IMG/VR virus record: IMGVR_UViG_3300034071_001210
Location: 1 to 64,000 of that record
Reading direction: 5' to 3' (one strand)
Source of the DNA: a virus
Lineage: Duplodnaviria > Caudoviricetes
DNA: 64,000 bases
Both the position numbers and the translations under genes were made by a program. Positions 12,609 to 31,961 of this stretch are shown piece by piece. Positions within the stretch are counted from its first letter, which is position 1. The number at the start of each line of letters is the position of its first letter. The notes beneath the pieces are model-generated. The model did no database searches, was not told the origin of the DNA, and saw only the letters and a list, made by a program, of their open reading frames with translations.

Positions 12609-12641
12609 AGATTCTCCTATATTTAGAAGCTTTGAAGATTA

Positions 12642-13865: not shown

Positions 13866-13867
13866 CC

Positions 13868-14293: not shown

Positions 14294-14310
14294 AACAAAT
14301 CCTTACTAAA

Positions 14311-19626: not shown

Positions 19627-20195
19627 ATATCAAGTGTATCTTTCTTTGACTTACGCTTACGCTTAACGCCCTCTTTCTTAGGTGGATTGAGCATAACACC
19701 AAATCTATCCATGTCAAGATCTGTAAGTCCAAAGAAATCTCTTCTACCAATGTCTACACCAGCATACACTTTATTAAACCAGTGATGAAAGTCTTTATCA
19801 TTCTGTTGTTCTGCATACTTGTATTGTGTATACTTTTCTTTCTTTTCTTTGTTTATTATACGAACAAAAGAAAACCAGCAAATCTGTGTAAGGTATCCGA
19901 ATGGACTCTTAGACTTTTCTGGATCAAAGTTACCAATATATGTGATACAGTTTAAGACAGCATCAGATACCATCTCTTCTCTATATGGGTAGTTTGCAAA
20001 ATTAGGACGAAACGAAAGTCTTGATGCAATCTTAAGAACACATTCTCCTATAAAATCTGGAAGCTTGGGTTTCTTTCTACCTGCATTTTCTGCATCATTG
20101 GACTTTTTACGATAATCAACTAAAGCATCATATAAATCAGAATTACTTACGTAATCTGCATCTGATGGTTTTTTTTTCTTGGATGGGTTTTTCAC
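19623..20195 (-). CDS. gp55: Late-transcription sigma factor
   Basis: YVSN, IGEC..KIA..LS..PNF.NY.YREEMVSDA, NFDPEKS.SPF.YLTQI motifs. Confidence 0.95.
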   Translation of the reverse strand: MKNPSKKKKPSDADYVSNSDLYDALVDYRKKSNDAENAGRKKPKLPDFIGECVLKIASRLSFRPNFANYPYREEMVSDAVLNCITYIGNFDPEKSKSPFGYLTQICWFSFVRIINKEKKEKYTQYKYAEQQNDKDFHHWFNKVYAGVDIGRRDFFGLTDLDMDRFGVMLNPPKKEGVKRKRKSKKDTLDI

Positions 20196-20232: not shown

Positions 20233-21042
20233 TTATCTAGTTAATAAATTCTCATAGCACTGCAATCCTTTAGAATCCATCTCATTAAAAAACGCAAGAG
20301 ATAGATCATTATTTACAATACTAATATGTGGACCAAATTTTGTTCCATGTGTATTTTTAATTTCTGGTTGATTTACATAATTAAAAAATTCGCTAATATT
20401 TTTATCAGTAATCTGATCCCATACTCGAGTACCAATTGTTGGTATTGTGTCATACTCTACACACCATTTAACACATTCTAATGTTCGCATACTACCAGTA
20501 ATTATATGGTTATTTTTAATATTTCGATTTTGCAAATATGAAACATGTGATTTGGCATCAATAGATTGTTCTTCCATTCTTCCAGGAATGATTGATAAGT
20601 ATTTAATATCATATGATAGAGCTAGAAGTGCAGTTGCTGCATCAGATGTGCCTGTAACATTTAATTTATAACTCTTTTTATGTTTTTGAGCAATCTTTAA
20701 TGCATGTTCAAATGGGGGGATTTTAATACATACCTGAACATTATTATTAGTAAATTTTGGTAATAGATCTATAAATTTTATAAAAGTTTTTTCTTCTACG
20801 ATAGATGAGGGAAATTGTATATGCAATTCCCCCAAATTATCTTGACGAATATCTGAAATAATATCTCCCAAGATTTTAGATTTTTCAATCCATTGATTTA
20901 AAGTTAAATCACCAGTTTTAAAAAATGCGTTAGGATTAGTAGTAATTCCTAACATACATTCCTTGGAAGAATGTGTTTTGATTTTAGTCCATAGATCTTT
21001 GATGTAAGTTGTATCTGCCGTATCAATAAAATAATTAAACAT
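20233..21042 (-). CDS. Divergent transaldolase/fructose-6-phosphate aldolase family protein
   Basis: FIDTAD, GITTNP, Schiff-base Lys in CIKIP, LNVT, S-x-x-x-GR and GSMR motifs. Confidence 0.8.
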   Translation of the reverse strand: MFNYFIDTADTTYIKDLWTKIKTHSSKECMLGITTNPNAFFKTGDLTLNQWIEKSKILGDIISDIRQDNLGELHIQFPSSIVEEKTFIKFIDLLPKFTNNNVQVCIKIPPFEHALKIAQKHKKSYKLNVTGTSDAATALLALSYDIKYLSIIPGRMEEQSIDAKSHVSYLQNRNIKNNHIITGSMRTLECVKWCVEYDTIPTIGTRVWDQITDKNISEFFNYVNQPEIKNTHGTKFGPHISIVNNDLSLAFFNEMDSKGLQCYENLLTR

Positions 21043-21400
21043 TTGTTTGTTCCTTAGTTAATAAAAAAGTATATGTATCTGCCCAGTTTTCAAATCGGTA
21101 TCCCTTATCATCAATGAAATAATCCACATGTGGTTTAGCAAAAAGTAATTCATCAAATGGTATATTCCATTTGTTCAACCATTGTGTTAATTTTAATGAA
21201 TGTTCTGCAATAATTTTTCCTTGATTATTCTCAAATGTTTTCATACCTCGAGCAGTATGAATTATAATATAATAACCTTTTTGTTTTAATAAATTTAAAG
21301 TTTTAACTGCACCATCCATTGGTTCAACATCATAATATTGTTGATTTATATTTTTATTTTGACAAATTGTCCCATCCATATCTACACATATTTTTAACAT
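21035..21400 (-). CDS. Capless HAD phosphatase (EcbF/BcbF capsule-phosphatase-like)
   Basis: DMDGT, HTARG, KP and FIDDK HAD motifs I-IV; 121 aa. Confidence 0.85.
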   Translation of the reverse strand: MLKICVDMDGTICQNKNINQQYYDVEPMDGAVKTLNLLKQKGYYIIIHTARGMKTFENNQGKIIAEHSLKLTQWLNKWNIPFDELLFAKPHVDYFIDDKGYRFENWADTYTFLLTKEQTNV

Positions 21401-21402
21401 AT

Positions 21403-22380
21403 TTAATTCAATGCCTCATTTAATAATTTGACACCAGTTATATACATTGCTTTTTGTCTATTTATATCATCATAATGTCTAGCACACATACTAACAAAAA
21501 TTAAACCTTGAATTAAAGAATATACAGCATAGTCATTGGGTGTTGTATAACTTTTAAAAATATTTAATGCTATATTTTTATTATCTGAATATGAATACTC
21601 TAAAGAATAATTAAATTTATTTTCTTCTGTTAGTTTATATTCATCATAGATAAAATATTCATAGCCACCATCAATTGAATGAAGTAACTTTGAATAATCA
21701 TATATACTTGAACCATAACATCCCTTGGAACCAAACGATCCACGGGGGTCAATAAATTTTATAGTTTTATCTGGTAAAGTTGAATTATAACCTAATAAAA
21801 TATTTGAAAAACACATATCACCATGAATAAAATTAAAATTACGATTATTTTTAATTATTTCAATTAGTCGTATTTTAATACTTGGCCATATTTTTTCAAA
21901 ATTTAAATATTTCTTTTTATTTAAAATAAAACATTCTGCAGAACATAATTCAGTAAAATAATTAAATTTAGTTTTTAAATTTAAATATTCATTTTCTGTT
22001 TTATCTATAAACATTTCTAAAATATACTTCTCTGCTTGATCATCAGATATATCAGATTTAGTATTTTTAAATTTTTCAATACTATTAAATAAAAGAGTTA
22101 TAATAGATTCCCAAAATTTTAATCCATGTGATTGGTGAATAAAATAATAAGCAATATTTTTATAACTATAATATTCTAATTCTAAATTGTAAGGTTTTTG
22201 AGTTTGATTAAAAGAATATATTTGAGGAAAATAACATTTTAATTCATTGGGAATTTGTTTATAATATTCAATTTCATCTAGCAACCTATCAGTTTCACTA
22301 CTTTTAAGTATTGATAAATTATCGATATTATATGTTATTCTATTATAGGCTCTGGTTATAAACGGCATTAAAAATTTCAT
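21403..22380 (-). CDS. APH/choline-kinase-fold sugar kinase (capsule-locus type)
   Basis: HGDMCFSNIL catalytic loop, IDPRG and YDYSKL motifs; start may be 22368. Confidence 0.8.
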   Translation of the reverse strand: MKFLMPFITRAYNRITYNIDNLSILKSSETDRLLDEIEYYKQIPNELKCYFPQIYSFNQTQKPYNLELEYYSYKNIAYYFIHQSHGLKFWESIITLLFNSIEKFKNTKSDISDDQAEKYILEMFIDKTENEYLNLKTKFNYFTELCSAECFILNKKKYLNFEKIWPSIKIRLIEIIKNNRNFNFIHGDMCFSNILLGYNSTLPDKTIKFIDPRGSFGSKGCYGSSIYDYSKLLHSIDGGYEYFIYDEYKLTEENKFNYSLEYSYSDNKNIALNIFKSYTTPNDYAVYSLIQGLIFVSMCARHYDDINRQKAMYITGVKLLNEALN

Positions 22381-22957
22381 CCACTGTAATAATATTTAAG
22401 TTATAAATTTTTGCAAATTCAAAGATTTGCTCACCCTTTGTCATTGTACCATCATCATTCATGATTTCAATGATTACTGAAATTGGTTTAAAACCTGCTA
22501 ACTTAACCAACTCCAAAGAAGATTCTGTATGACCACGCCGATCCTTTAACAAATTTGGTTTGCCACATAGTGGAAATAGGTGACCTGGTTGTGCCAAGTC
22601 AGATGGTTTACATTCATCATTTACAAACGTTTGGATAGTCTTTAAGCGATCATATACAGACATACCTGTACTAGTATCCTTTGTTGCATCAATAGATGTA
22701 GCAAAAGGAGTTCCCAGAGTATCTAAATTATTTGAATTCATCATTTTGATATTAAACTGGTCTAGTTTAACTTGAGTACATGGAATACACATCAATCCTT
22801 TCGCATGTCTCATAGCAAAAATTAAATTATATTTTGTTACTGCTTCGGCAGCAATAACAATGTCAGCTTCATCTTCTCGATTCGAATCATCAATGATGAT
22901 AACTGGTCTTCCATTTTTAACATCATTCAAGATTACGTTTAATTTTGTGTGTTCCAT
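22343..22957 (-). CDS. ribB: 3,4-dihydroxy-2-butanone-4-phosphate synthase
   Basis: DD.NREDEAD, GLMC, TGMS..DR, PGHLFPL, RRGHTE and EIMNDDG motifs. Confidence 0.93.
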   Translation of the reverse strand: MEHTKLNVILNDVKNGRPVIIIDDSNREDEADIVIAAEAVTKYNLIFAMRHAKGLMCIPCTQVKLDQFNIKMMNSNNLDTLGTPFATSIDATKDTSTGMSVYDRLKTIQTFVNDECKPSDLAQPGHLFPLCGKPNLLKDRRGHTESSLELVKLAGFKPISVIIEIMNDDGTMTKGEQIFEFAKIYNLNIITVDEIFNAVYNQSL

Positions 22958-23001
22958 ATATAAGAGTCAATCCTTTAAATTAGTATAGTGTCGTTGATAA
23001 C

Positions 23002-23029
23002 AATATATAGTGAGATTATAAGATGTCAA
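23002..23029 (-). promoter_or_regulatory. Sigma70-type promoter TTGACA-N16-TATATT for the ribB sub-operon
   Basis: Sits in the only sizeable intergenic gap of the island and begins CTTGACATCTT like the island's main promoter. Confidence 0.6.
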
Positions 23030-23056
23030 GTTATTATTGATACTTATTTTTTATTT

Positions 23057-23893
23057 TTATGCTATAGGGTTTCTTGATAAAATAATACCTTTATTGCCTT
23101 CTGTGCTTTTTAATTTTTTTATTTGACGTAGATCAATTCCTTGTTTTTGTAAATTGTAGACAGGTAATCGGTGAGGATTAATAAATTCCTTTAATAGGGT
23201 AGGTTCTTTTAATTCTTCAAATAATATATCATAGTTATTATACAAAGAATTTAATTTTGTTATGATTTTTTCATCACCAATAGCCCACCAATCATTTAGT
23301 TCTTCATCATAATTTAAATCTTTACGAATTTGTCTTAGTGCTGATTCTGTTGGCCAAGGTGGTGTAAGTATATTAAAATCTTCATACAATTTTATAGGTT
23401 TAAAAAAAATAAAATCACATCTTGATTTTATAACTACGTTATATTTTTTATTTGTTGTAAGCTGGTGTTTCTGCTTTAATTGTTCTACATCAGACCACTT
23501 ATACCACATCGAACAATTAGCTAAAATTCTATTAAATTTAATATTTTCATTTATTGTACCATTTATAATTAAGGAATCCCTCAATTCATATATTTTATGT
23601 GTTTTGTGTTTAAATGTTTCTTTTTTATCGTTAAAATTTTCTATATTACAATATACTGGATTAAAAATATCCCTAATTTTACTTTCATCAATAAGCTCTC
23701 CAGATACAATACCATCATTTTGATTTTCATCATAATAAAAATGTGATCTAAGACCAGTATCATTCCAGGTACTAATAAAAATATCAAAAGTACACGATGG
23801 ATTTACTTTAAATATATACTTTTCATAAGAATCATATAAAGCTTTAAAATTTGTTGTTCTAAAATGCCCCGATAATAATATTGCAATATTCAT
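23057..23893 (-). CDS. Uncharacterised glycosyltransferase-like protein (xIAI-x-LSG-x-x-R family), paralogue 1
   Basis: MNIAILLSGHFR, DIFISTW, SMWYK and YNVVIKSRCD motifs. Confidence 0.55.
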   Translation of the reverse strand: MNIAILLSGHFRTTNFKALYDSYEKYIFKVNPSCTFDIFISTWNDTGLRSHFYYDENQNDGIVSGELIDESKIRDIFNPVYCNIENFNDKKETFKHKTHKIYELRDSLIINGTINENIKFNRILANCSMWYKWSDVEQLKQKHQLTTNKKYNVVIKSRCDFIFFKPIKLYEDFNILTPPWPTESALRQIRKDLNYDEELNDWWAIGDEKIITKLNSLYNNYDILFEELKEPTLLKEFINPHRLPVYNLQKQGIDLRQIKKLKSTEGNKGIILSRNPIA

Positions 23894-24327
23894 AGTAATT
23901 GTTTATATTTGATAGGATAATCCGTGCAGATGCCATATGCATTATCATAAGATACACCTGGTTGCAGTTCTGGTAATACGCATATAGAATTAGAAGTCAA
24001 CATATTATTTTTAAAAGTCCATAAATAATTTTTACTTGTTAATACAACTTTATCAGTTTCATGCCAAAAACAATGAAGTTTGGAATTAACCATATATTCA
24101 AGAGCTTCAATATTTTTGGCATGACACCATAAAGGAAGGTCTTTTAAAAAATTTTCATTAATAGGATATTGTGGTGAGTCATGTCCCAAAAATAATGTTC
24201 CGGATATATACCAAACGTCAATTTCAACATCAAAACCAATAGAGACGGCTGCTTCGATATAATCTGGATGATTTTCCCAATTTATGTCTTGTCCAATAAG
24301 ATTCCCTCGGTGAGATATTATCTTCAT
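23890..24327 (-). CDS. Short PLC-like/glycerophosphodiester phosphodiesterase-fold protein
   Basis: ISHRGN, EN, DVEIDV, LGHD, WCHAKN and GICTD motifs. Confidence 0.8.
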   Translation of the reverse strand: MKIISHRGNLIGQDINWENHPDYIEAAVSIGFDVEIDVWYISGTLFLGHDSPQYPINENFLKDLPLWCHAKNIEALEYMVNSKLHCFWHETDKVVLTSKNYLWTFKNNMLTSNSICVLPELQPGVSYDNAYGICTDYPIKYKQLL

Positions 24328-24342
24328 ATATATGTTAGAGTA

Positions 24343-25536
24343 TTATGTACTCTTTCCCCATTTAACAATTGCTTCATGATATTCCTTTCCATGAGTTTTA
24401 TCAATTGATTGTCTCATGGCTTTAGCACCCGATAAAGTTCCATTTGGATGTCCATGGACAGCACCACCAGCATTTCCAAGATAATCATTACCAACCAAAG
24501 ATGTAATCCTGTCAACTAAACCCGGATGAAGACCACAACTCAAAGCAGGAAGGGTATTTCCATCACGAAGAATTCTAATGCATTCAAGAATTTCGTCTTC
24601 ATCGTCATTACTGTATCCACCAACCATTCCAGTTTGTATCGTATCAGCACCCATAAGAGTAGCCAATTGGCATATAACGGTCCAACTAATACTAAACTGA
24701 TTGTTTATACTAGTAGAAACTTTCGCACCACTACTTTGAAAATGTATATACATTGGCAAATCTAGTTTTCGGATGCTATTGTATACCCCGTAGCCACTCC
24801 ATACATTTATATGAACTCCATTGCCTCCAAGAGAATAAATTCTTTTAACACGATCCACGAGGATATGTGGATCACAATTTATTGTATGACAAAAAACAAC
24901 ATTCCTAGATTGTGAGTTCAAATAATTTGAAATTAGGTCTACTCTTTTATCAAGAGTACAGAAAGAAGGATTGGACATTATCTCATCTTCCTTAATAAAG
25001 TCAACACCACCATCAACAAGTTCTTTAACCATATCTAAAAGGGTTTCAGGACTTATTCCTATCTTGGGTTTGATAATTGCACCAAATAAAGGTTTATCAT
25101 ATTGACCCGTAAACTTTCTCATTCCAGTTATACCAAATTTTGGTCCCAAGAAATGCTGTGTAACTGTCTTAGGTAAATCAAGTTTGATAAGACGACACTT
25201 CTTAATTAAATCAATATCAACATGACCGCCCATGATTTGGCACAACAAATGACTTATTCCATCTGTTTCCCAATCGGTATTAATTACAGGAAATGCAATT
25301 TTAACATCTCCAGATAATTTCTTCTGTAAATCTAATTCATCTCCAAGTACTAGACAAGAATGGTTTTTAAATAGATCTTCGGTTTCCCACCGATTTCTTA
25401 CATTGGGATTTCCAACACTTTGTCCGATAGCAATATTCCAAGCAGCATCTCGTAGATTTGTATTTGATTCTATTCTATATGTTACTACAAAATATTTTTC
25501 TTTATCTAGTTCACGTTCACACACAAATATATTCAT
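24343..25536 (-). CDS. RuBisCO large-subunit superfamily protein (RuBisCO-like protein, probably non-carboxylating)
   Basis: GPKFG, IIKPKIG, signature GVDFIKEDE, LSCGLHPG and GGAVHGHP; lacks several carboxylase residues. Confidence 0.93.
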   Translation of the reverse strand: MNIFVCERELDKEKYFVVTYRIESNTNLRDAAWNIAIGQSVGNPNVRNRWETEDLFKNHSCLVLGDELDLQKKLSGDVKIAFPVINTDWETDGISHLLCQIMGGHVDIDLIKKCRLIKLDLPKTVTQHFLGPKFGITGMRKFTGQYDKPLFGAIIKPKIGISPETLLDMVKELVDGGVDFIKEDEIMSNPSFCTLDKRVDLISNYLNSQSRNVVFCHTINCDPHILVDRVKRIYSLGGNGVHINVWSGYGVYNSIRKLDLPMYIHFQSSGAKVSTSINNQFSISWTVICQLATLMGADTIQTGMVGGYSNDDEDEILECIRILRDGNTLPALSCGLHPGLVDRITSLVGNDYLGNAGGAVHGHPNGTLSGAKAMRQSIDKTHGKEYHEAIVKWGKST

Positions 25537-25539
25537 AAT

Positions 25540-25869
25540 TTATTCCTTATATTCGTTATATTTATCACCTATAACTGATGGTGTTTTTATACATAATACT
25601 TTACAATCTTCCAGAAATCTTGGTGTAGATGATTCATTAGGATCTATTACAAAAATATCTCCAACATGTATTTGTATATTATTTACAGTCATACTTCCAC
25701 TTAAAAGAACATTTATTTCTGTAGCAAGCTTATGATGATGTGGTGCCCAATATTCATCTTTAGTATGAGTTAACACCCCAACTTCAAATTCTGTAGTACG
25801 TAGAACAGATGGTACAAAATCACCAATAAACCAACCACGCAACATATCTTTTATTTTAAATAATTTCAT
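25540..25869 (-). CDS. Cupin-domain protein
   Basis: RGWFIGDF, H-H-H-K...E-I-N metal motif, GDIFVI and K.PS...DK. Confidence 0.8.
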   Translation of the reverse strand: MKLFKIKDMLRGWFIGDFVPSVLRTTEFEVGVLTHTKDEYWAPHHHKLATEINVLLSGSMTVNNIQIHVGDIFVIDPNESSTPRFLEDCKVLCIKTPSVIGDKYNEYKE

Positions 25870-26558
25870 AATATATATTCTTTAATTTTTGTAGCGGTAG
25901 CAACACCCCAATCATGTTCCAAAGTTGTTAAATGTTTTTGTTTTACATAATAGTCTGAATCAATGGCTTCATATACACAATATGGACCCGGATGATAATT
26001 TGTATCATGCATTAAAACATGTCCACCTAAATTTAAAAGATTAGTAAATCTCCAATCCTTTACAACTTGATCCACAGAATGCCAACCATCTATAATGAAC
26101 AAGTCTACCATCCCTACATTTAAATAATTTAAATATCCAACAATTTGTTCATAATTACTAGAATTTGTAGCCAATCCAAAATTATTTAAACTTTCATTAT
26201 ATATTGTATCAATCAAACCTTGTTGTAAGTCTACCCCAATATATTTGGTATGCAAAGATTTATTTTTTAAAATAAATTGAGTAGAAGAGTATTCTCTACT
26301 TCGGTTAACTCCAATTTCCAAAATAACATTTAATTTATTTTTTTGTTCTAAATCATCCATCAATGACTTTAAAACTTGTTTATTATTTTCTGAAAATTCT
26401 TGAGTAATTTTGTTATGCTTATCTTGAATATTTGTTAAGACCCCATCAATATATGCTTCAGGAATCCAATCATCTGAATTTTTATATTCAATTAAATCAG
26501 GAATAAATTTTAACCCTTTTATATCAGACGTGTTTTCATTATATTTAAATAATTTCAT
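25866..26558 (-). CDS. Class I SAM-dependent methyltransferase (Methyltransf_24-like)
   Basis: ILEIGV, YIGVD, DLFIIDGWH and GG.VLMHD motifs. Confidence 0.8.
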   Translation of the reverse strand: MKLFKYNENTSDIKGLKFIPDLIEYKNSDDWIPEAYIDGVLTNIQDKHNKITQEFSENNKQVLKSLMDDLEQKNKLNVILEIGVNRSREYSSTQFILKNKSLHTKYIGVDLQQGLIDTIYNESLNNFGLATNSSNYEQIVGYLNYLNVGMVDLFIIDGWHSVDQVVKDWRFTNLLNLGGHVLMHDTNYHPGPYCVYEAIDSDYYVKQKHLTTLEHDWGVATATKIKEYIL

Positions 26559-27385
26559 TACATGAACTTCCTTCCATTTATATCAATGTTTGTAAAGTAT
26601 TTAGTTGGTAAATCATAGAGATCTTTTTCAAAATAAGGATACATCATATGCATATTTATTTTAGGATCGGATAAAATATTTAAAAGATTGGGTGAATAAT
26701 TGGTATCCTTTACTCCATTCCATTTTTGTTCAAAAAGTTGTCTACAGACAGAATAATATTTTTGGCTTTCTGTATGCGCTGAATTTAAATCAGTCCCCGG
26801 TATTTTATAAACAATATGTGGTAATGGATTCCAGATTCTTAATTGTCTAGGATCATTTATACTAGTATGTTCGTGATTATATTTTATTGCTCTTAAAAAG
26901 TAATCACCTTCGTGATATCCTATAGTACAAAATCTTTCATCCCACATACCTATTTTTTTGACTGCTTCAGCAGTATAACTCATAAATCCACATCCTTGAG
27001 AAAAAGTTATTAAATTATATCTTTTATGATATAATAACAACTGTTCAAAAAAATTAGGGTGAAATATGTTATCATCATGACTGTGCATCAACAAATCACA
27101 ATCCGGATTATTTAAATCTTTAAAACCATTTATAAAAATTTCATTATAATTTCTACTTAAATGTCCACAAGAAAAATCCGGTCTCATAGTATTATGTAAA
27201 ACTTTAACTTTATCGTGATATTTTAAATCTAAGTTAAAATTACTATGGTTATTTACTATATAAACTTCTTTTGACCAATTATCATATACTGTATTTACGA
27301 ATAAATCAGTATTAAATAAAGAATCTAAAGTAGCATGCAGATCATTATACCGATTATAAGTAACTATATAAAATTTTAATTTCAT
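26558..27385 (-). CDS. GT2-like glycosyltransferase
   Basis: IVTYNR, IVNN, HDD, KKIGMWDERF and EGDYFLR motifs. Confidence 0.75.
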   Translation of the reverse strand: MKLKFYIVTYNRYNDLHATLDSLFNTDLFVNTVYDNWSKEVYIVNNHSNFNLDLKYHDKVKVLHNTMRPDFSCGHLSRNYNEIFINGFKDLNNPDCDLLMHSHDDNIFHPNFFEQLLLYHKRYNLITFSQGCGFMSYTAEAVKKIGMWDERFCTIGYHEGDYFLRAIKYNHEHTSINDPRQLRIWNPLPHIVYKIPGTDLNSAHTESQKYYSVCRQLFEQKWNGVKDTNYSPNLLNILSDPKINMHMMYPYFEKDLYDLPTKYFTNIDINGRKFM

Positions 27386-28119
27386 CTTTGTAATTCTCCG
27401 AATAAATTTATTTTTGTAACAGGAATATTTAAAACATTATCAATGTAATATGTCAATAAAGAATGACCACATGTTAATTTATTGGGGTCTGTTTTTAAAA
27501 AATATGGAACGACTTTAGTATTAACTTCCTTATAAATATTAAAAATTTTTAATAAATTTTGAGGAGATGAGATAATATAAAAATCGTGATATCCGTCAAG
27601 TGGATTACTAAGTGATATATAAATGTTATTAGGATTTAAATCTTTAATCTGGGGGGTATAGGTGGGTTTAAAATCTGGTCTACTACAAATTACAAGATCA
27701 TAATCTTGTTTTAATAAATATTGAACTCCAGTATATCGTTTATAATATTGAGAAAAAAACCATTCAAATCTTCTATCTTGATTATATTTTTTAGTTATAA
27801 TATTTTTTACTAAAAAAGATTTACTTTTAAAATTTTGTTTTAAAGCCACATCTTGGTAATTTTCCATAATTAATTTTTTACAATTATGAAGATTTTTTAA
27901 ATATTCTTCATCAAGTGCAGTTGGATCAAATTTTGCATTACATAATGCACCACGACTACAAATATCACCAGTATCTATCCTTTTACCATTGGTTTCATAT
28001 ATACTTAAATAAAAATCAGATAGACAGTCAAAAGGTTCCATAATAAATTGTCGCCAATTTTCTATTGTATAATCAAGTGTTCTATACTGTCCAGTTAATA
28101 ATAGTGCGGTTTTTAACAT
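27382..28119 (-). CDS. Uncharacterised glycosyltransferase-like protein, paralogue 2
   Basis: TALLLTGQYR, SQYYK and YDLVICSRPD motifs. Confidence 0.55.
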   Translation of the reverse strand: MLKTALLLTGQYRTLDYTIENWRQFIMEPFDCLSDFYLSIYETNGKRIDTGDICSRGALCNAKFDPTALDEEYLKNLHNCKKLIMENYQDVALKQNFKSKSFLVKNIITKKYNQDRRFEWFFSQYYKRYTGVQYLLKQDYDLVICSRPDFKPTYTPQIKDLNPNNIYISLSNPLDGYHDFYIISSPQNLLKIFNIYKEVNTKVVPYFLKTDPNKLTCGHSLLTYYIDNVLNIPVTKINLFGELQR

Positions 28120-28877
28120 ATAATTCTTTTTGATATAAATTCTTCTAAGTCTTTAGGAGTACCCAAAGAATAAAAACTAGTATCAGTCATTTGAAAATAT
28201 TTTATTTTATATTGTGGTAATAACTCATTAAAGGTTAAAGAAACATAAAATTCTCCATTATATGTTATATTTTTTTTAATTATATCTTCTGCAGATTTAA
28301 CAAAAGTATTCCCTTGTTTCCAAAAATGTATTCCATTTAACATTAATTTACTTATAGCAATCTTTTCTGAAAAGTTAATACCATAACCAAATTCATTTGT
28401 CTCAATAAAAGAGTAGGGAGTTTTTGAGAAAGGTATTATTGTATTTGGGTCTATATGGTTATATGTTGTAACAAGTGCATCACAATCAGGTTGATTTATT
28501 GTGTTTACAAAATTATCTAATTCACCAATATTCCAATTAATATACTGATCGCAATTTGTTACTATTAATTGTGAATCATTATCAATATATTTTTTTGCCA
28601 ACAGAACCGATTCTGCTGCTCCTTTAGTTAAAATTTTACTACTAATAATTCTAGCATTTGGATTGATGGTATATATCAAGTTCTGTAGACGATCATTCCA
28701 ATCTTTGTTATCATATTCTCTTATAATAAAAATATAATTTGCATTTGTTATACCTAAAGATTCTACAGAATGTTGTAAAATAGGTTTATTAAAAATTTTT
28801 ATTAAAGGTTTTGGGTCTAAATATCCCTCTTCTTTAAACCGTCTACCTTCTCCGACTAATGGTATCACTATATTCAT
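28113..28877 (-). CDS. Sugar-phosphate nucleotidyltransferase (NTP_transferase family, BcbE-like)
   Basis: IPLVGEGRRF...PKPLI, TKGAAESV, NCDQ, EK, NGEFYV and LGTP.DL motifs. Confidence 0.85.
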   Translation of the reverse strand: MNIVIPLVGEGRRFKEEGYLDPKPLIKIFNKPILQHSVESLGITNANYIFIIREYDNKDWNDRLQNLIYTINPNARIISSKILTKGAAESVLLAKKYIDNDSQLIVTNCDQYINWNIGELDNFVNTINQPDCDALVTTYNHIDPNTIIPFSKTPYSFIETNEFGYGINFSEKIAISKLMLNGIHFWKQGNTFVKSAEDIIKKNITYNGEFYVSLTFNELLPQYKIKYFQMTDTSFYSLGTPKDLEEFISKRIIC

Positions 28878-29623
28878 AGATATTTTAAATTTGTTCGTTG
28901 TATAAGATTTATTGAAAAATTAATTGGATTTATATTGAGAGTATTTTCATTTCTAACCCAGTGTCCAAGATAATTTTCTCCATATTTTGGATTTATTATT
29001 TTATTTAATCTTAAAAATTCAGGATAAACACTACAAAAGATATCCATATTTTGAGTATTAGAAAAAGCAAAAATATCTGGCATTGGTTTATTTGAATTGT
29101 TAAATGATTCTTGATCAAAAAAATATTTTTCTGGAATATTAATATTATTTAATTGTGTATTATATTCATTAAAATTAATTGAGTTAAAATATATTAAATC
29201 AGTTCTTGTTCTTAAAACCAAATCATATTTAAAATTACATTGTGTTTCATAATCTCGTTTTAAATTATTTGCCATATACATAGAATAAAATAAACTACAA
29301 AGATTATTTTGTTTAGCATTTTGCGATGATTCTGTTAGTTGAACGTATTTATCAAAGTTTTTTTGAGGTTCAATTAAATATTTTTTTGGTTTATATAAAT
29401 TTTTTATAATAATATCAGAGTCTTTTAAAAGAGTTCCAACACTATTTAATTGTAAATCCTGAGCCGAATTAAAAAATTTATTTATATCTTCTTTATCATA
29501 CCAAGTATGAATAAAAAAATCAATATCGTGTTCCAAATTAGGTTTTATGATATATTCATTTAAATATTCATATCCTAAATTTAAATATCGTGGTTGTCCC
29601 GATAAACAAATTGCAATTTTCAT
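28874..29623 (-). CDS. Uncharacterised glycosyltransferase-like protein, paralogue 3
   Basis: MKIAICLSGQPR, DFFIHTW, SLFYS, YDLVLRTRTD and DIFAF motifs. Confidence 0.55.
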   Translation of the reverse strand: MKIAICLSGQPRYLNLGYEYLNEYIIKPNLEHDIDFFIHTWYDKEDINKFFNSAQDLQLNSVGTLLKDSDIIIKNLYKPKKYLIEPQKNFDKYVQLTESSQNAKQNNLCSLFYSMYMANNLKRDYETQCNFKYDLVLRTRTDLIYFNSINFNEYNTQLNNINIPEKYFFDQESFNNSNKPMPDIFAFSNTQNMDIFCSVYPEFLRLNKIINPKYGENYLGHWVRNENTLNINPINFSINLIQRTNLKYL

Positions 29624-30465
29624 TTAATTATTCTCTTCTTAGTATACTCTAACGAAGACATGTATTCTAGCATCGATTCTTTTGATTTAACATTTGTAGT
29701 AATTACATCCCACAACTTATGGTTTTCTTTATTATAAAATGTATTGCAATCCGATGCTTTTGATTTTGGATGGTTCATGTGAACTACGTAGCCCGAATCA
29801 ATCCATCCTATTTTATAGCCAAGAATATAAAATCTATATAAACGTTCCTGATCTTCAGGACCCCAGTCAATAAATTCTTCATTTTCACCAAAACCATTTT
29901 TATATGAATCCGTATTAAAAAATTGAATACCACCAGTAGTAATTATTTTACCCAATCCTATTGATGTAAATAAATTCAACCCTGGATGATCTGTAAAAAC
30001 TGGATATTTATCTGTTAAATAAGAAATCCATGAAGTATCTGGATCTGTTAAAATTTTATTTAATTGTTGTTCAGTAAACTCCCAAAAAGTTAAAAATGAT
30101 TCTTTTTCATAAGGATAAACAAAATCATATTCATTTTCTAACATTTTTAAACATTTTTTTACATTATCTTGTGGAATTAGAATATCACAATCATAGTTAA
30201 TTGTAAATTTGGTATCTACAAGCTCTAACATATCATTTAATATTTTTGTTCTATGAAAAAAAGAAGTATCATTAGTTTGTTCAAATATATAAGTTAATCG
30301 GTCGTCTTTAACTAAATTTGTTTTTTGTTCTGAATCAACTTCTTTTACAATAATTTTACATTTGTAAAACTTTAATAAAAATGTAACAACAGAATTTAAA
30401 TTTCTTAATCTTTCTGGTGAATCTATTCTAACTGGAATTATTGCTGTCAAATCTTGACTATTCAT
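29620..30465 (-). CDS. GT2/GT7-C-type glycosyltransferase
   Basis: IIPVRID..ER..NL, YDCD (DxD) and GENEEFIDWGPED motifs. Start at 30465 (ATGA overlap) is more likely than the track start of 30534. Confidence 0.8.
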   Translation of the reverse strand: MNSQDLTAIIPVRIDSPERLRNLNSVVTFLLKFYKCKIIVKEVDSEQKTNLVKDDRLTYIFEQTNDTSFFHRTKILNDMLELVDTKFTINYDCDILIPQDNVKKCLKMLENEYDFVYPYEKESFLTFWEFTEQQLNKILTDPDTSWISYLTDKYPVFTDHPGLNLFTSIGLGKIITTGGIQFFNTDSYKNGFGENEEFIDWGPEDQERLYRFYILGYKIGWIDSGYVVHMNHPKSKASDCNTFYNKENHKLWDVITTNVKSKESMLEYMSSLEYTKKRIIK

Positions 30466-31250
30466 AATATAGTCCAATCTTTGCAGTAAATATCTGACCA
30501 GTTTTTGGGAGCACTGGGCGCAGATCCAAACCATTTTGAAGGTGCAATAGTTTTCTTGGAATCACTCAACCAAGATCCCCACCAGCTAAAAGAACTATTA
30601 GCAATAATATGATAATTGCATAAAGTCATTAAACACATATCAACATATTTATCGTTACTTTCTGTAAATACTACTTTACGATTTAACGATTTAAAAAACT
30701 CAATTGCTTGTGGCATATCATCACTAAAGACATAGATTAAAAGATCATCAGGCAATAACTTTAGTGCTTCTGCATAATAATCCACTGAACATATTGGGTG
30801 ACTATCTTGCAACTGAACATAATCACCTAACCTTAGATGTATCGATATGGTTGGTAATCTTGTTAAAGATCGCATATCTACTGCTTGCTTATAAATTCTA
30901 TCATTAAAAGAAAATTCTTTTAATAATTGTTCTCTATAATCTACAAAATATTTTTCACTTTGAAAATAACCAGTAATATCTGTGTTATCTTGGATTCCAA
31001 AAATACCAGCATTATATGTAAACTGATGTTCCTGAGCTTTATTTAAAGCCGCATAATCACTACTATCAGCTGCAGATAGATTTGAAAAACATTCAGGTAA
31101 ACAAAAATTATAGTATTCATTATTAGTTTTTAACTTATATGGAACACCAAATTGATATTTTCTAGTTTTAGCAATAGAATATAATGTAGCATATTGAAAC
31201 ATCTGATTTCCAAATCTACCATTTGTTCCAATTCTATTATATGTAATCAT
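30462..31250 (-). CDS. GT11 alpha-1,2-fucosyltransferase-like glycosyltransferase
   Basis: GRFGNQMFQY, GYFQSEKYF, HLRLGDY, FSDD and IIANSSFSWWG motifs. Confidence 0.9.
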   Translation of the reverse strand: MITYNRIGTNGRFGNQMFQYATLYSIAKTRKYQFGVPYKLKTNNEYYNFCLPECFSNLSAADSSDYAALNKAQEHQFTYNAGIFGIQDNTDITGYFQSEKYFVDYREQLLKEFSFNDRIYKQAVDMRSLTRLPTISIHLRLGDYVQLQDSHPICSVDYYAEALKLLPDDLLIYVFSDDMPQAIEFFKSLNRKVVFTESNDKYVDMCLMTLCNYHIIANSSFSWWGSWLSDSKKTIAPSKWFGSAPSAPKNWSDIYCKDWTIL

Positions 31251-31882
31251 AAATACGCTGAATCCCTATCTTCTAGTGTATTATCAGTAAAGTGTTGCCA
31301 CTTGTTAGCTGAATCTCTATTATCTGATTGATAAAAATATGGTTTATTTGGTGTATATACTTTAGTTTGAAATTGTAATGATGATGCTCCTACATCCCAT
31401 GGCTGTTTTAAATCATGAATACAATGTTTTGCTACACGAGACATATAGTCTCTATATATGGGAGTTACATATAAAATAGCATGAGTGGCTAGAATTCCAC
31501 CTATTCTCATATATTCTTCTGTATATCTTTTAGTTTGGTATCCACGGTTACCACTAGAAATACCAAGGTAAATGCCATCTGTATCGTCTGGAATATCCAT
31601 AATTGGATTAAATGAATCTGTAAATTCTGCGTCATCTTCTAAAATTAGAAGTGGCGTTGTATACTGCACATCATCCAAAATATCAATATGGGATTGTGCA
31701 CAGCCAACATAATGTGCATTACTTGGTATAGTGCCTTCTGGAGCTGGAATGATTCTAGCAGATTTTCTATAAGTATGTTTAAACCCAAACTTTAGAAGAT
31801 TGTCTTGCATAATTTCAGCATTTTTAGTTGCTGAATCCAAATTAATCCATACGACTGGTATTTCGCGTAAATCAATAATCAT
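31247..31882 (-). CDS. GT25-like glycosyltransferase
   Basis: WINLD, GCAQSH, LILEDD and THAI motifs. Confidence 0.8.
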   Translation of the reverse strand: MIIDLREIPVVWINLDSATKNAEIMQDNLLKFGFKHTYRKSARIIPAPEGTIPSNAHYVGCAQSHIDILDDVQYTTPLLILEDDAEFTDSFNPIMDIPDDTDGIYLGISSGNRGYQTKRYTEEYMRIGGILATHAILYVTPIYRDYMSRVAKHCIHDLKQPWDVGASSLQFQTKVYTPNKPYFYQSDNRDSANKWQHFTDNTLEDRDSAYL

Positions 31883-31896: not shown

Positions 31897-31933
31897 AATA
31901 TAATACAACTTATAAAGATGTCAAGTTATTTAG
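31897..31933 (-). promoter_or_regulatory. Island promoters: TTGACA-N16-TATATT (31897-31924) plus late-type CTAAATA (31927-31933)
   Basis: Both motifs are read directly upstream of the first island gene. Confidence 0.6.
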
Positions 31934-31961
31934 TTGACATTTTCTTGACTTCTACTATACT
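31934..31961 (+). promoter_or_regulatory. Sigma70-type promoter TTGACA-N16-TATACT for uvsY
   Basis: ATG 31968 lies 6 nt after the -10 box; divergent from the island promoter. Confidence 0.7.

What the first reader, a model, noticed from the sequence alone, without database searches (positions are those of the whole stretch)
20233..31882. Phage-encoded RuBisCO-like-protein operon that looks like a complete pathway to an unusual activated sugar and its glycan
Seen: 16 co-oriented, mostly overlapping genes inserted between uvsY and gp55, visibly more AT-rich than gp23 or gp32. They combine three enzyme families whose known members act on ketose phosphates (RuBisCO-like protein, RibB, transaldolase/FSA-family aldolase) with a cupin, an APH-fold kinase, a HAD phosphatase, a nucleotidyltransferase, a phosphodiesterase, a methyltransferase, four recognisable GTs (GT25, GT11, GT2/7, GT2) and three paralogous GT-like ORFs. 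Established: kinase + phosphatase + nucleotidyltransferase is the logic of NDP-sugar activation (e.g. GDP/ADP-heptose), and characterised RLPs enolise, isomerise or transcarboxylate sugar-like phosphates (methionine salvage, apiose/hamamelose catabolism). Inference: the phage draws on pentose phosphates to build a rare ketose, branched or short-chain NDP-sugar and transfers it to virion proteins or the host surface. That would be a biosynthetic role for an RLP, which I do not know to have been characterised.
Basis: partly seen in the sequence, partly recalled or inferred. Interest (0 to 1): 0.92.

Follow-up and report, generated by a model that had tools for sequence, protein, structure and literature searches.

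The report
Phage glycan island: RuBisCO-like plus RibB cassettes
A lake-water T4-like phage carries an AT-rich gene island that joins two separately mobile sugar-activation cassettes, one built around a RuBisCO relative that has lost the CO2-fixing residues and one around the riboflavin enzyme RibB; this points to untested glycan-building jobs for both enzymes.

Summary
There are 16 co-oriented minus-strand genes between gp55 and uvsY, and their GC3 is 9-24% against 26-34% in the flanks.

The island is not one linear pathway. It has two transcription units, each behind a near-identical sigma-70-like promoter.

**Unit 2 plus the single nucleotidyltransferase (NTase) forms a "RibB cassette".** It comprises NTase, RibB, an APH-fold kinase, a HAD phosphatase and a TAL/FSA-like aldolase.
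- The cassette is contiguous in 14 other viral contigs and in cultured cyanophage S-SKS1.
- There NTase and RibB are one fused ORF and no RuBisCO-like protein (RLP) is present.
- Its logic matches the phage UDP-arabinofuranose route (AfhE/AfhF).

**Unit 1 holds the RLP block: cupin, RLP and a mini-GDPD phosphodiesterase.**
- The RLP keeps K175, K177, K201, D203 and E204 and the P1 phosphate site. It has lost K334, H294/R295, H327, N123 and E60.
- In 80 IMG/VR loci it lies within 3 kb of an NTase in 76, and in 17 cellular loci it lies beside one in 15.
- Those hosts include SAR11, Verrucomicrobia, CPR bacteria, Azospirillum, Nonomuraea and Nanoarchaeota.

The reverse does not hold: NTase plus mini-GDPD usually occurs without the RLP, so the RLP is an optional add-on.

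Phage "Form IV-like" RLPs were reported in 2018 with no function assigned. This scan has found both cassettes before on other DNA. The products and the glycan target remain unknown.

The parts
31247..31882 (-). GT25-like glycosyltransferase; first gene of transcription unit 1
   Evidence: Pfam PF01755, E 1e-3, below cutoff. Conserved in L007 at 65% and L074 at 43%.
30462..31250 (-). GT11 (fucosyltransferase-family) glycosyltransferase
   Evidence: Pfam PF01531, 83 bits, E 2.4e-23.
29620..30534 (-). GT7C-like glycosyltransferase (weak call)
   Evidence: Pfam PF02709, E 2e-4, below cutoff.
28874..29623 (-). GT-A-fold protein, DUF7796-like (paralogue 1)
   Evidence: Pfam DUF7796, 6e-6. AF2 pLDDT 84.6. 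VIA-align top hits are GT-A glycosyltransferases: Mnn9 Z 12.3, BoGT6a Z 11.6.
28113..28877 (-). Sugar-phosphate nucleotidyltransferase; the only one in the window
   Evidence: Pfam NTP_transferase/NTP_transf_3. Profile best PDB hit is 4evw at 5e-34, then HddC, ManC and RmlA. In the tree it groups with L007, L020 and L054 and is sister to the RibB-fused NTase domains (SH-aLRT 97). No second copy in the window.
27382..28119 (-). GT-A-like paralogue 2
   Evidence: blastp to 23057-23893 at 5e-4. 47% identity to the L007 orthologue.
26558..27385 (-). GT2-like glycosyltransferase (weak call)
   Evidence: Pfam PF00535, E 9.5e-4, below cutoff. Homologues lie in 6 RLP loci.
25866..26558 (-). Methyltransferase (Methyltransf_24-like)
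   Evidence: Pfam E 5.6e-4. Homologues lie in 28 of 80 RLP loci.
25540..25869 (-). Small metal-type cupin encoded just upstream of the RLP
   Evidence: Invariant H44, H46, E51 and G58 form cupin motif 1. PDB profile hits to cupins start at 7e-6 and include a small protein deposited as mannose-6-phosphate isomerase (7zvm, 2e-4). Present in 53 of 80 RLP loci. Natural fusions occur with NTase and mini-GDPD.
24343..25536 (-). RuBisCO-like protein (non-carboxylating, 'Form IV-like')
   Evidence: Pfam RuBisCO_large, 125 bits. All NCBIfam RuBisCO/RLP models score far below cutoff. Active-site map comes from the alignments to 8dht and 4nas. At least 179 IMG/VR relatives. No match in 50,697 deposited phage records.
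23890..24327 (-). Mini-GDPD: a 145-aa glycerophosphodiester-phosphodiesterase-like barrel
   Evidence: Invariant H6, R7, E18, N19, E35, D37, H49, H69, K71 and H89. AF2 pLDDT 96.8. VIA-align: ranks 1-22 score Z 8.0-11.4 over 133-140 of 145 residues, and all but one (rank 2, 7wwc, a beta-1,3(4)-glucanase) are GDPD/PLD-family entries. 230 natural fusions, mostly to GT-A-like domains.
23057..23893 (-). GT-A-like paralogue 3; last gene of unit 1
   Evidence: blastp to 28874-29623 at 1.8e-10.
31897..31924 (-). Sigma-70-like promoter of unit 1 (TTGACA-16-TATATT)
   Evidence: 11 of 12 consensus match. It lies in the 85-nt gap upstream of GT25 and shares an identical 16-mer with the RibB promoter.
23002..23029 (-). 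Sigma-70-like promoter of unit 2 (TTGACA-16-TATATT)
   Evidence: 11 of 12 consensus match in the 99-nt gap upstream of RibB. The 16-mer AAGATGTCAAGTTATT occurs only at these two places in the window.
22343..22957 (-). RibB, 3,4-dihydroxy-2-butanone 4-phosphate synthase
   Evidence: Pfam 216 bits. TIGR00506 184.1 against a cutoff of 177.45. Fused to the NTase in S-SKS1, L244 and L249.
21403..22380 (-). APH-fold sugar kinase (AfhE C-terminal-domain-like)
   Evidence: Atlas structure TM 0.91 to APH domains fused to NTP_transferase. HGDxxxxN and DPRG motifs. tblastn hits to RB69-group 'GlmU-like' bifunctional proteins.
21035..21400 (-). HAD phosphatase (capsule-biosynthesis / GmhB-like)
   Evidence: TIGR01689 at 1.3e-20; GmhB models at 3e-4. 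PHROG 1238.
20233..21042 (-). Divergent TAL/FSA-family aldolase
   Evidence: Pfam TAL_FSA 29.2 against a cutoff of 27. PHROG transaldolase at 2.5e-26. Family alignment has an invariant K107 in a KIP motif, plus TTNP and SIIPGR.

Best explanation
The island is a horizontally acquired glycan-biosynthesis island made of two separately mobile cassettes that share one nucleotidyltransferase (NTase).

**Cassette R: NTase 28113-28877 plus unit 2, 20233-22957**
1. RibB makes 3,4-dihydroxy-2-butanone 4-phosphate from ribulose 5-phosphate.
2. The divergent TAL/FSA-like aldolase builds or reshapes a sugar phosphate from it. This step is inferred.
3. The APH-fold kinase, the HAD phosphatase and the NTase then convert that sugar phosphate to a sugar 1-phosphate and an NDP-sugar. 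This is the logic of the heptose route and of the phage UDP-arabinofuranose (AfhE/AfhF) route.

**Cassette G: 23057-28119 within unit 1**
- It carries a cupin, an RLP and a mini-GDPD with GT-A-like transferases, a GT2 and a methyltransferase.
- The RLP keeps the Mg/carbamate enolisation machinery and one phosphate site but not the carboxylation residues. It most likely enolises or isomerises a monophosphorylated ketose.
- The cupin acts as an isomerase or tautomerase on the same scaffold.
- The product is nucleotide-activated and transferred by the GT-A-like enzymes.
- The mini-GDPD works at or next to the transfer step.

**Shown versus inferred**
- Shown: family and fold assignments, linkage, fusions, modularity and the promoters.
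- Inferred: substrates, products, the order of steps, and the acceptor (virion protein or host envelope).
For: **Modularity**
- The RibB-kinase-HAD-aldolase block sits directly behind an NTase in all 15 contigs found with the kinase profile. The RLP is present in only one of them, L007, which is the window's relative.
- NTase and RibB are a single ORF in cultured phage S-SKS1, in L244 and in L249.
- The two best minus-strand sigma-70-like sites fall in the only two gaps and share an identical 16-mer.

**RLP linkage**
- In 80 IMG/VR loci the NTase lies within 3 kb in 76, the mini-GDPD in 64 and the cupin in 53. There are 18 different gene orders and RLP identity runs from 55% to 86%.
- An NTase accompanies the RLP in 15 of 17 cellular loci (RLP identity down to 37%), usually with the cupin, the mini-GDPD or both.
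- Hosts include Pelagibacter, Verrucomicrobiae, Patescibacteria/Beckwithbacteria, Elusimicrobia, Azospirillum, Nonomuraea, Sphingobacteriales, Balneola and Nanoarchaeota.

**Glycan context**
- The Pelagibacter copy lies among GT9, PfkB, SIS, HAD-NTase and CTP_transf_3 genes.
- The Planctomycetales copy lies among PMT_2 GT-C genes.
- Phage loci also carry FkbM methyltransferases, SDR epimerases and WavE.

**Fusions**
- The mini-GDPD is naturally fused to GT-A/DUF7796, GT61, WavE, NTase, NTase+cupin, HAD and ribulose-phosphate 3-epimerase domains.

**RLP active site**
- K175, K177, K201, D203, E204, S379, G381, G403 and G404 are kept.
- E60, N123, H294/R295, H327 and K334 are replaced (family invariants).

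**Precedent**
- The AfhE/AfhF route runs from ribulose 5-phosphate to UDP-arabinofuranose (PMC13326640).
- The window's kinase detects those RB69-group proteins.
Against: - No substrate or product is known for any enzyme here.
- The RLP is dispensable for the NTase + mini-GDPD pair: only 3 of the 80 best NTase loci have it. Its role may therefore be peripheral.
- The window has only one NTase, in the clade sister to RibB-fused NTases. Whether it serves cassette G at all is unknown.
- Several GT and methyltransferase calls are sub-threshold.
- Some 'fusions' in metagenomic gene calls could be read-through artefacts.
- Linkage among related phages is partly inheritance rather than independent evidence.
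- The aldolase lacks, by motif inspection, both the TAL-type Glu and the FSA-type Tyr, so its reaction may not be an aldol transfer.
Confidence: 0.6

Rival explanations
1. One integrated pathway. RibB, the aldolase, the RLP and the cupin act in series on one pentose-phosphate-derived intermediate, and the single NTase activates it.
For: - The window and L007 have only one NTase for both blocks.
- The RLP block sits exactly between NTase and RibB, which are fused elsewhere.
- The window's NTase clusters with two RLP-linked NTases and is sister to RibB-fused NTases (SH-aLRT 97). The family may therefore accept related substrates.
Against: - RibB, kinase, HAD and aldolase are absent from 79 of 80 RLP loci.
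- The RLP is absent from 14 of 15 RibB-cassette contigs.
- The two blocks have separate promoters.
- Contigs L248-L254 carry both a RibB cassette and a separate NTase + mini-GDPD pair.
Confidence: 0.15
2. DNA hypermodification. The NDP-sugar(s) are used to glycosylate modified cytosines in phage DNA, as UDP-arabinofuranose is in RB69, DLP3 and HY126.
For: - The phage is T4-like.
- The kinase/HAD/NTase trio is homologous in logic to AfhE/AfhF, and the kinase is detectably similar in sequence.
Against: - The island holds GT11-, GT25-, GT2- and GT7-like genes and three GT-A-like genes, which fits an oligosaccharide.
- Cellular copies lie in LPS/GT-C loci.
- The mini-GDPD is fused to glycan GT families.
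- tblastn with T4 gp42, beta-gt and gp56 finds nothing credible in the 64-kb window. This is weak evidence, since only part of the genome was searched.
Confidence: 0.1
3. Salvage or catabolic auxiliary gene. RLP plus cupin (and HAD) recycle SAM by-products such as 5-methylthioribulose 1-phosphate or 5-deoxyribulose 1-phosphate, as in the MTA-isoprenoid shunt or Bacillus methionine salvage. Their place in a glycan island is incidental.
For: - Adjacent RLP + cupin is the hallmark of the MTA-isoprenoid shunt: a DeepYkr RLP 1,3-isomerase plus a cupin methylsulfurylase (PMC5893883).
- SAM-dependent methyltransferases lie next to the RLP in many loci.
Against: - The link to an NTase is near-obligate, in 76 of 80 loci.
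- The cupin also occurs with NTase + mini-GDPD in loci without the RLP and is fused to them.
- No MtnA, MtnP or MtnB homologues were seen in the island.
- MtnW models score far below cutoff (164 against 409), and the cupin has no NCBIfam hit.
Confidence: 0.1
4. A bona fide CO2-fixing RuBisCO brought in as a photosynthesis-type auxiliary gene.
For: The best NCBIfam hit is type III RuBisCO at 183 bits. The closest solved structures include form III enzymes.
Against: - Loop-6 K334, H294/R295, H327, N123 and E60 are replaced.
- The score is far below the type III cutoff of 497.
- No PRK or AMP-pathway genes lie nearby.
Confidence: 0.02

Closest known systems
'Form IV-like' RuBisCO-related proteins of phages and Beckwithbacteria (Jaffe, Castelle, Dupont, Banfield 2018/19, PMC6389311)
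   Same: A divergent RLP on Myoviridae-type phage contigs from many environments, with relatives in Beckwithbacteria (L088, 50% identity). It lacks key carboxylase residues.
   Different: In the passages I read, that paper leaves the function open and does not mention the gene neighbourhood. Here the RLP is shown to travel with an NTase, a cupin and a mini-GDPD in glycan loci, and to be an optional add-on to an NTase + mini-GDPD pair. I did not compare sequences directly with their set.
MTA-isoprenoid shunt of Rhodospirillum rubrum and Rhodopseudomonas palustris (DeepYkr RLP 1,3-isomerase + cupin methylsulfurylase; PMC5893883)
   Same: An adjacent RLP-cupin gene pair. The RLP acts on a 1-phospho-ketose by enolisation, and the product is a ketose 5-phosphate of the kind some nucleotidyltransferases accept.
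   Different: There are no MtnP or MtnA partners. The module is linked to an NTase, a phosphodiesterase-like protein and GTs rather than to sulfur salvage. The cupin is only 109 aa and has no NCBIfam hit. The role would be anabolic rather than salvage.
Phage UDP-D-arabinofuranose route: arabinose-5-P isomerase, AfhE (NTase + APH-fold kinase), AfhF (HAD phosphatase) (PMC13326640)
   Same: It starts from ribulose 5-phosphate. An APH-fold kinase makes a bisphosphate, a GmhB-like HAD removes the distal phosphate, and an NDP-sugar pyrophosphorylase activates the 1-phosphate. It occurs in T4-like phages.
   Different: The SIS isomerase is replaced by RibB plus a divergent TAL/FSA-like aldolase. The NTase is fused to RibB rather than to the kinase. 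No 5-hydroxy- or hydroxymethyl-cytosine genes were seen, and the context is an oligosaccharide GT set.
Glycerophosphodiester phosphodiesterases (GDPD; e.g. T. maritima TM1621, 1o1z; B. subtilis GlpQ)
   Same: The fold matches at Z 11.4 (rmsd 3.2, 138 residues aligned). The N-terminal catalytic motifs HR, EN, ExD and HD are conserved.
   Different: It has only 145 residues against about 220-330. No Pfam GDPD hit at E <= 0.01. From my recollection of the family motif, a His sits where canonical GDPDs have the metal-binding Glu; I did not test this with a tool. It is cytoplasmic and is usually fused or adjacent to GT-A-like transferases and NTases.
LPS/glycan gene islands of T4-like cyanophages (e.g. 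S-SM2, S-PRM1, S-SKS1 records)
   Same: These are hypervariable islands of GTs, NTases, kinases, HAD phosphatases and epimerases between core T4-like genes. The mini-GDPD is present in 17 Synechococcus phage records, and the RibB cassette is present in S-SKS1.
   Different: None of the 50,697 deposited phage records holds the RLP. In this window the RLP block is inserted into the RibB cassette.

Membership tests
Bona fide RuBisCO (forms I-III) | Large-subunit fold with K175, carbamylated K201, D203 and E204 | tested here: met
   Pfam PF00016 at 125 bits. The IIKPK and FIKEDE motifs align to 8dht and are invariant in 30 relatives.
Bona fide RuBisCO (forms I-III) | Carboxylation and P2-site residues K334 (loop 6), H294, R295, H327, N123 and E60 | tested here: not met
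   In the alignment to 8dht, HR becomes QS, H327 becomes Q, K334 becomes Y, N123 becomes G, and E60 becomes G/Q. An invariant His two residues upstream aligns with the His of the YkrW-type AHPA motif in 4nas.
Bona fide RuBisCO (forms I-III) | Reaches a curated family score (NCBIfam type III) | tested here: not met
   183 bits against a cutoff of 497.
YkrW/MtnW RLP (DK-MTP-1-P enolase) | Reaches the curated equivalog score | tested here: not met
   PRK09549 scores 164.5 against 409. TIGR03332 scores 133.7 against 513.6.
OiaX-type RLP (apiose catabolism) | Reaches the curated equivalog score | tested here: not met
   145.9 against 700.
'Form IV-like' phage/Beckwithbacteria RLP clade (Jaffe 2018) | Encoded on myovirus-type phage contigs, with close relatives in Beckwithbacteria | tested here: met
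   The window has a T4-like core. There are 179 IMG/VR relatives. The Beckwithbacteria MAG locus L088 is 50% identical.
'Form IV-like' phage/Beckwithbacteria RLP clade (Jaffe 2018) | Falls in the same phylogenetic clade as their sequences | not tested
   Their sequences were not at hand, so no joint tree was built.
GDPD (glycerophosphodiester phosphodiesterase) | PLC-like TIM-barrel fold | tested here: met
   VIA-align: ranks 1-22 score Z 8.0-11.4, and all but one (rank 2, 7wwc, a beta-1,3(4)-glucanase) are GDPD/PLD-family entries. The best is 1o1z at Z 11.4, rmsd 3.2, 138 aligned. Unrelated barrels score Z <= 7.
GDPD (glycerophosphodiester phosphodiesterase) | Catalytic His-Arg, Glu, Glu-x-Asp and second His motifs | tested here: met
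   H6, R7, E18, N19, E35, D37 and H49-D50 are invariant or nearly so in 38 sequences. The mapping to canonical positions is by motif, from my knowledge of the family.
GDPD (glycerophosphodiester phosphodiesterase) | Matches the family's sequence model at full-length barrel size | tested here: not met
   No Pfam or NCBIfam hit at E <= 0.01. It has 145 aa against 218-328 in the solved GDPDs.
AfhE/AfhF-type phage NDP-pentose pathway | APH-fold sugar kinase + GmhB-like HAD phosphatase + NDP-sugar pyrophosphorylase in one cassette | tested here: met
   The kinase hits RB69-group bifunctional proteins.
AfhE/AfhF-type phage NDP-pentose pathway | SIS-type arabinose-5-phosphate isomerase as the first enzyme | tested here: not met
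   No SIS domain in the island. RibB and a TAL/FSA-like protein occupy that place in all 15 contigs.
AfhE/AfhF-type phage NDP-pentose pathway | Companion dCMP hydroxylase/hydroxymethylase and DNA glycosyltransferases | tested here: inconclusive
   No credible tblastn hit for T4 gp42, beta-gt or gp56 in the window. Only 64 kb of the genome was available.
DHBP synthase (RibB) | Reaches the curated equivalog-domain score | tested here: met
   TIGR00506 scores 184.1 against 177.45. Pfam scores 216 bits over the full profile length.
Transaldolase / fructose-6-phosphate aldolase (TAL_FSA) | Family model match and Schiff-base lysine | tested here: met
   Pfam 29.2 against 27. PHROG transaldolase at 2.5e-26. 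K107 is invariant in a KIP motif, with TTNP and DTA motifs.
Transaldolase / fructose-6-phosphate aldolase (TAL_FSA) | General acid/base: Glu (TAL type) or Tyr (FSA type) | tested here: inconclusive
   By motif, HIQ has Gln at the Glu position and SIIPGR has Ile at the Phe/Tyr position. No tool alignment to a solved TAL or FSA was obtained; phmmer against the PDB gave no hit.
MTA-isoprenoid shunt (RLP + cupin methylsulfurylase) | Adjacent RLP and cupin genes | tested here: met
   The cupin lies within 400 nt of the RLP in 43 of 80 loci, and 3 nt apart here.
MTA-isoprenoid shunt (RLP + cupin methylsulfurylase) | MtnP/MtnA partners, and orthology of the RLP and cupin to the R. rubrum enzymes | tested here: inconclusive
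   No such families in the island. The cupin has no NCBIfam hit. No direct comparison with the R. rubrum proteins was possible.

The most novel reading that the evidence does not exclude
The RLP (with its cupin) and RibB may be alternative front-ends that each turn a pentulose phosphate into a small deoxy- or rearranged ketose phosphate.

- RibB is known to give a C4 1-deoxy-tetrulose phosphate.
- RLP plus cupin would give a C5 product, as in the DXP-forming shunt.
- One and the same NTase family would then activate these products for transfer onto a glycan, with the mini-GDPD acting on a phosphodiester at the transfer step.

This would be the first biosynthetic RLP and the first non-riboflavin use of RibB, and it would imply a new class of nucleotide-activated ketose or polyol-phosphate donors in aquatic phages and SAR11.
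Probability: 0.15. Interest if true: 0.85.

Novelty: new variant of a known kind. Interest (0 to 1): 0.62.

Why it matters
Every characterised RLP works in salvage or catabolism: methionine/MTA salvage and apiose catabolism.

This RLP clade is locked to a nucleotide-activating enzyme inside surface-glycan loci of abundant aquatic phages, SAR11, CPR bacteria and DPANN archaea. That would extend the RuBisCO fold to glycan biosynthesis. It would also give a testable function to the 'Form IV-like' phage RLPs left open in 2018.

The RibB cassette would be a second case of a central-metabolism enzyme recruited to make an unusual activated sugar. It is present in a cultured cyanophage (S-SKS1) where it can be tested.

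The RLP module also occurs in cultured isolates, namely Azospirillum oleiclasticum RWY-5-1-1, Nonomuraea rosea JCM 17326 and Pelagibacter sp. Uisw_094. Genetics and glycan chemistry are therefore feasible.

If the products decorate virions or remodel host envelopes, they bear on phage-host recognition in lakes and oceans.

Tried and rejected
- **The genome search 'own':** no whole genome is held for this window.
- **The search for related loci with the mini-GDPD alignment:** no stretch was conserved enough to search with. The kinase as a single protein found only the L007 contig until a 3-sequence alignment was used.
- **Foldseek of the mini-GDPD model against the PDB:** no match at E <= 0.001. 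GDPDs led the list at E about 0.01. VIA-align then gave clear GDPD matches.
- **phmmer against the PDB:** nothing useful for the kinase, nothing for the aldolase, and nothing meaningful for the mini-GDPD. The GT-A-like profile also gave nothing useful.
- **Literature searches** for RLP combined with nucleotidyltransferase, cytidylyltransferase, polysaccharide, O-antigen or capsule found no paper on this linkage. The 'IV-GOS' term led only to a review, so I could not test whether this clade equals Tabita's IV-GOS.
- **Sequencing runs:** no RNA holder is listed for the stretch, so nothing can be said about expression.
- **tblastn with T4 gp42, beta-gt and gp56** against the window gave only noise.
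- **megablast of the island** against deposited phages gave no match.
- **Carbon-fixing RuBisCO:** considered and rejected on the active-site residues.
- **Mini-GDPD as a phosphomutase:** considered and set aside, because beta-phosphoglucomutase-type HAD domains are fused to the NTase in some relatives and could fill that role.

Full report
**What is in the sequence**

- The window is part of a T4-like myovirus.
  - SMC-type gp46 and the gp47 phosphoesterase lie at 16862-19626.
  - gp55, the late sigma factor, lies at 19623-20195 (PHROG 234, 7e-49).
  - UvsY lies at 31968-32405 and UvsW at 32424-33926.
  - A major-capsid region resembles freshwater and marine cyanophages, Pelagibacter phage Mosig and Methylophilales phage Melnitz.
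- Between gp55 and uvsY lie 16 minus-strand ORFs. They are mostly overlapping and have GC3 of 9-24%, against 26-34% in the neighbouring core genes.
- The same stretch is held by many lake-water metagenome runs from 2016 to 2024, so this is a persistent freshwater phage population.
- The island has no megablast match among 50,697 deposited phage records.

**Gene identities**

- Solid family calls:
  - RibB: 216 bits, and it passes the TIGR00506 cutoff.
  - RuBisCO large-subunit homologue: 125 bits.
  - GT11: 83 bits.
  - Sugar-phosphate nucleotidyltransferase (NTase).
  - Capsule-type HAD phosphatase: TIGR01689, 1e-20.
  - TAL/FSA-family protein: just above the Pfam cutoff, and PHROG transaldolase at 2.5e-26.
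- ORFs with no family hit were placed by other means:
  - 21403-22380 is an APH-fold kinase. Its Atlas model matches APH domains fused to NTP_transferase at TM 0.91, and it has HGDxxxxN and DPRG motifs.
  - 23890-24327 is a 145-aa GDPD-like barrel. AF2 pLDDT is 96.8, and the VIA-align list is led by GDPD/PLD entries at Z 8.0-11.4. H6, R7, E18, N19, E35, D37 and H49 are invariant.
  - 28874-29623 has a GT-A fold (Z 12.3 to Mnn9). It is a distant paralogue of 23057-23893 and 27382-28119.
- The cupin at 25540-25869 keeps the HxH..E..G metal motif.
- The GT2, GT7C, GT25 and Methyltransf_24 calls are below threshold.

**The RuBisCO homologue is not a carboxylase**

- HMMER alignments to solved form III (8dht) and YkrW-type (4nas) proteins show what is kept and lost.
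  - Kept: K175, K177, K201, D203, E204, S379, G381, G403 and G404.
  - Replaced: E60, N123, the H294-R295 pair (here Q-S), H327 (Q) and loop-6 K334 (Y).
- The enolisation and Mg site and the P1 phosphate site therefore survive. The second phosphate site and the carboxylation loop do not.
- It scores far below every curated RuBisCO/RLP model: type III 183 against 497, MtnW 164 against 409, OiaX 146 against 700.
- Jaffe et al. (PMC6389311) reported about 80 such 'Form IV-like' proteins on Myoviridae-type contigs and in Beckwithbacteria and left the function open.
- I found no later paper that assigns one.

- IMG/VR holds at least 179 contigs with a relative at 55-86% identity. No deposited phage genome has one.
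- In the 80 best loci:
  - An NTase lies within 3 kb of the RLP in 76.
  - The mini-GDPD lies within 3 kb in 64.
  - The cupin lies within 3 kb in 53.
  - A Methyltransf_24 gene lies within 3 kb in 28.
  - There are 18 different gene orders.
- Other frequent neighbours are FkbM methyltransferases, SDR epimerase/dehydratases, GT-A-like proteins and WavE.
- An NTase accompanies the RLP in 15 of 17 cellular loci, at RLP identities down to 37%, usually with the cupin, the mini-GDPD or both. These include:
  - a complete Pelagibacter chromosome
  - a Verrucomicrobiae chromosome
  - Patescibacteria and Beckwithbacteria
  - Elusimicrobia
  - Azospirillum oleiclasticum
  - Nonomuraea rosea
  - Sphingobacteriales
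  - Balneola
  - Nanoarchaeota
- The genomic surroundings of the cellular copies vary.
  - In Pelagibacter the module lies among GT9, PfkB, SIS, HAD-NTase and CMP-sugar-type genes.
  - In Planctomycetales it lies among PMT_2 GT-C genes.
  - In Nonomuraea it sits on an integrase-flanked island with a GT2.

**The linkage is asymmetric**

- Searching with the NTase profile gave more than 580 viral hits. Of the 80 best loci, 56 hold the mini-GDPD, 15 hold the cupin and only 3 hold the RLP.
- The common unit is NTase + mini-GDPD, often overlapping. The cupin and the RLP are optional additions.
- Natural fusions tie the parts together.
  - 230 longer proteins contain the mini-GDPD.
  - At least 33 of the 120 listed carry a DUF7796-type GT-A domain.
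  - Others carry GT61, WavE, HAD, NTase, NTase+cupin, methyltransferase, APS kinase or ACP domains.
  - One carries ribulose-phosphate 3-epimerase (P0161, 207 bits).
- The prevalence of GT fusions suggests the mini-GDPD works at the transfer step rather than in precursor supply.
- The epimerase fusion, RibB and the RLP all point to pentulose phosphates as feedstock. Both of these readings are inferences.

**The RibB block is a separate cassette**

- A profile of the kinase found 15 viral contigs. All have the contiguous order NTase, RibB, kinase, HAD, TAL/FSA-like, usually preceded by a GT-A-like gene.
- Fourteen of them lack the RLP. Several carry a separate NTase + mini-GDPD pair a few kb away.
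- In cultured Synechococcus phage S-SKS1, and in L244 and L249, NTase and RibB are one ORF of 465-475 aa.
- The window's only NTase groups with that of L007 and two RLP-linked NTases. It is sister to the S-SKS1-type RibB-fused NTase domains (SH-aLRT 97).
- In this lineage the block [GT-A-like, GT2, methyltransferase, cupin, RLP, mini-GDPD, GT-A-like] therefore sits between an NTase and a RibB that are adjacent or fused elsewhere.
- The two best minus-strand sigma-70-like sites in the island are both TTGACA-16-TATATT. They fall in the only two gaps, upstream of GT25 and of RibB.
- These two sites share an identical 16-mer found nowhere else in the window.
- The overall count of promoter-like sites is not above chance. 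This rests on position and on the shared motif.

**How it most likely works**

- Cassette R follows the published phage route to UDP-arabinofuranose. In that route an APH-fold kinase (the AfhE C-terminal domain) makes a 1,5-bisphosphate, a GmhB-like HAD (AfhF) removes the distal phosphate, and the AfhE N-terminal domain makes the NDP-sugar (PMC13326640).
- The window's kinase detects those RB69-group proteins by tblastn.
- Here the SIS isomerase is replaced by RibB and an aldolase. The aldolase keeps the Schiff-base lysine, but by motif it has neither the TAL Glu nor the FSA Tyr.
- The sugar is thus probably built from, or with, dihydroxybutanone phosphate. Its identity is unknown.
- For cassette G, I propose that the RLP enolises or isomerises a monophosphorylated ketose and the cupin isomerises or tautomerises it.
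  - One PDB hit of the cupin profile is a small protein deposited as mannose-6-phosphate isomerase (7zvm, 2e-4).
  - A natural cupin-NTase-GDPD fusion carries the MannoseP_isomer cupin of PMI-GMP enzymes.
- The product would then be nucleotide-activated and transferred.
- The adjacent RLP-cupin pair of the MTA-isoprenoid shunt is the nearest enzymatic precedent (PMC5893883).

**Rivals**

- A single integrated pathway remains possible, because the two cassettes share one NTase here. Their independence elsewhere argues against it.
- DNA glycosylation is a real alternative in a T4-like phage. Against it stand the GT repertoire, the cellular LPS contexts, and the absence of gp42, beta-gt or gp56 homologues in the window (weak evidence).
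- A pure salvage role for the RLP does not fit the near-obligate NTase linkage.

**Standing**

- This scan has met both the RLP cassette and the RibB cassette before on other DNA, with similar conclusions from other follow-up agents. My results were obtained independently and agree.
- Three things are particular to this window:
  - Both cassettes are combined in one island.
  - The RLP block is inserted between the NTase and RibB.
  - There are twin promoters.
- Nothing here identifies the product or the acceptor.

Noticed in passing
L255 (Synechococcus phage S-SKS1, NC_020851.1 35955-39493): The 475-aa ORF deposited as '3,4-dihydroxy-2-butanone 4-phosphate synthase' is an NTase::RibB fusion. 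The small HAD phosphatase next to the kinase is deposited as 'phosphoheptose isomerase', and the same label sits on the HAD genes of S-SM2 and Bellamy. These look like annotation errors that have propagated.
   Followed up: partly
L256 (Synechococcus phage S-SM2, 152-160 kb): The mini-GDPD lies in a cluster with a 522-aa 'dN-sugar pyrophosphorylase', a class II aldolase/adducin-family protein, two HAD genes and a cupin deposited as cysteine dioxygenase. Aldolase-II, HAD and cupin are the enzyme families of methionine salvage steps MtnB, MtnX/C and MtnD, but here without an RLP.
   Followed up: no
P0161, P0131, P0223 (metagenomic proteins): The mini-GDPD domain is fused to ribulose-phosphate 3-epimerase (207 bits), to APS kinase (142 bits) and to an acyl-carrier domain. 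This hints at pentulose-phosphate supply, sulfation and acylation in related glycan cassettes.
   Followed up: partly
L094 (Nonomuraea rosea JCM 17326, 9178-14624): The mini-GDPD / RLP / cupin / NTase module is followed by a GT2, an AdoHcyase_NAD-like protein and a deoxynucleoside-kinase-like protein. Phage-type integrases and a transposase flank it, so it looks like a mobile island in an actinomycete.
   Followed up: partly
window 30462-30534 and 22343-22380: The GT11 ORF overlaps the end of the GT7-like ORF by 73 nt, and RibB's end overlaps the kinase ORF by 38 nt as called from the first start codon. The true starts are probably further downstream.
   Followed up: no
window 31934-31961 (+): A third 11-of-12 sigma-70-like site (TTGACA-16-TATACT) faces uvsY, back to back with the island's unit 1 promoter. 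The 85-nt gap therefore looks like a divergent early promoter region.
   Followed up: no
L248-L254 versus L241-L247: RibB-fused NTase domains fall in two separate places of the NTase tree. Either the fusion arose twice or the NTase domain was swapped.
   Followed up: partly
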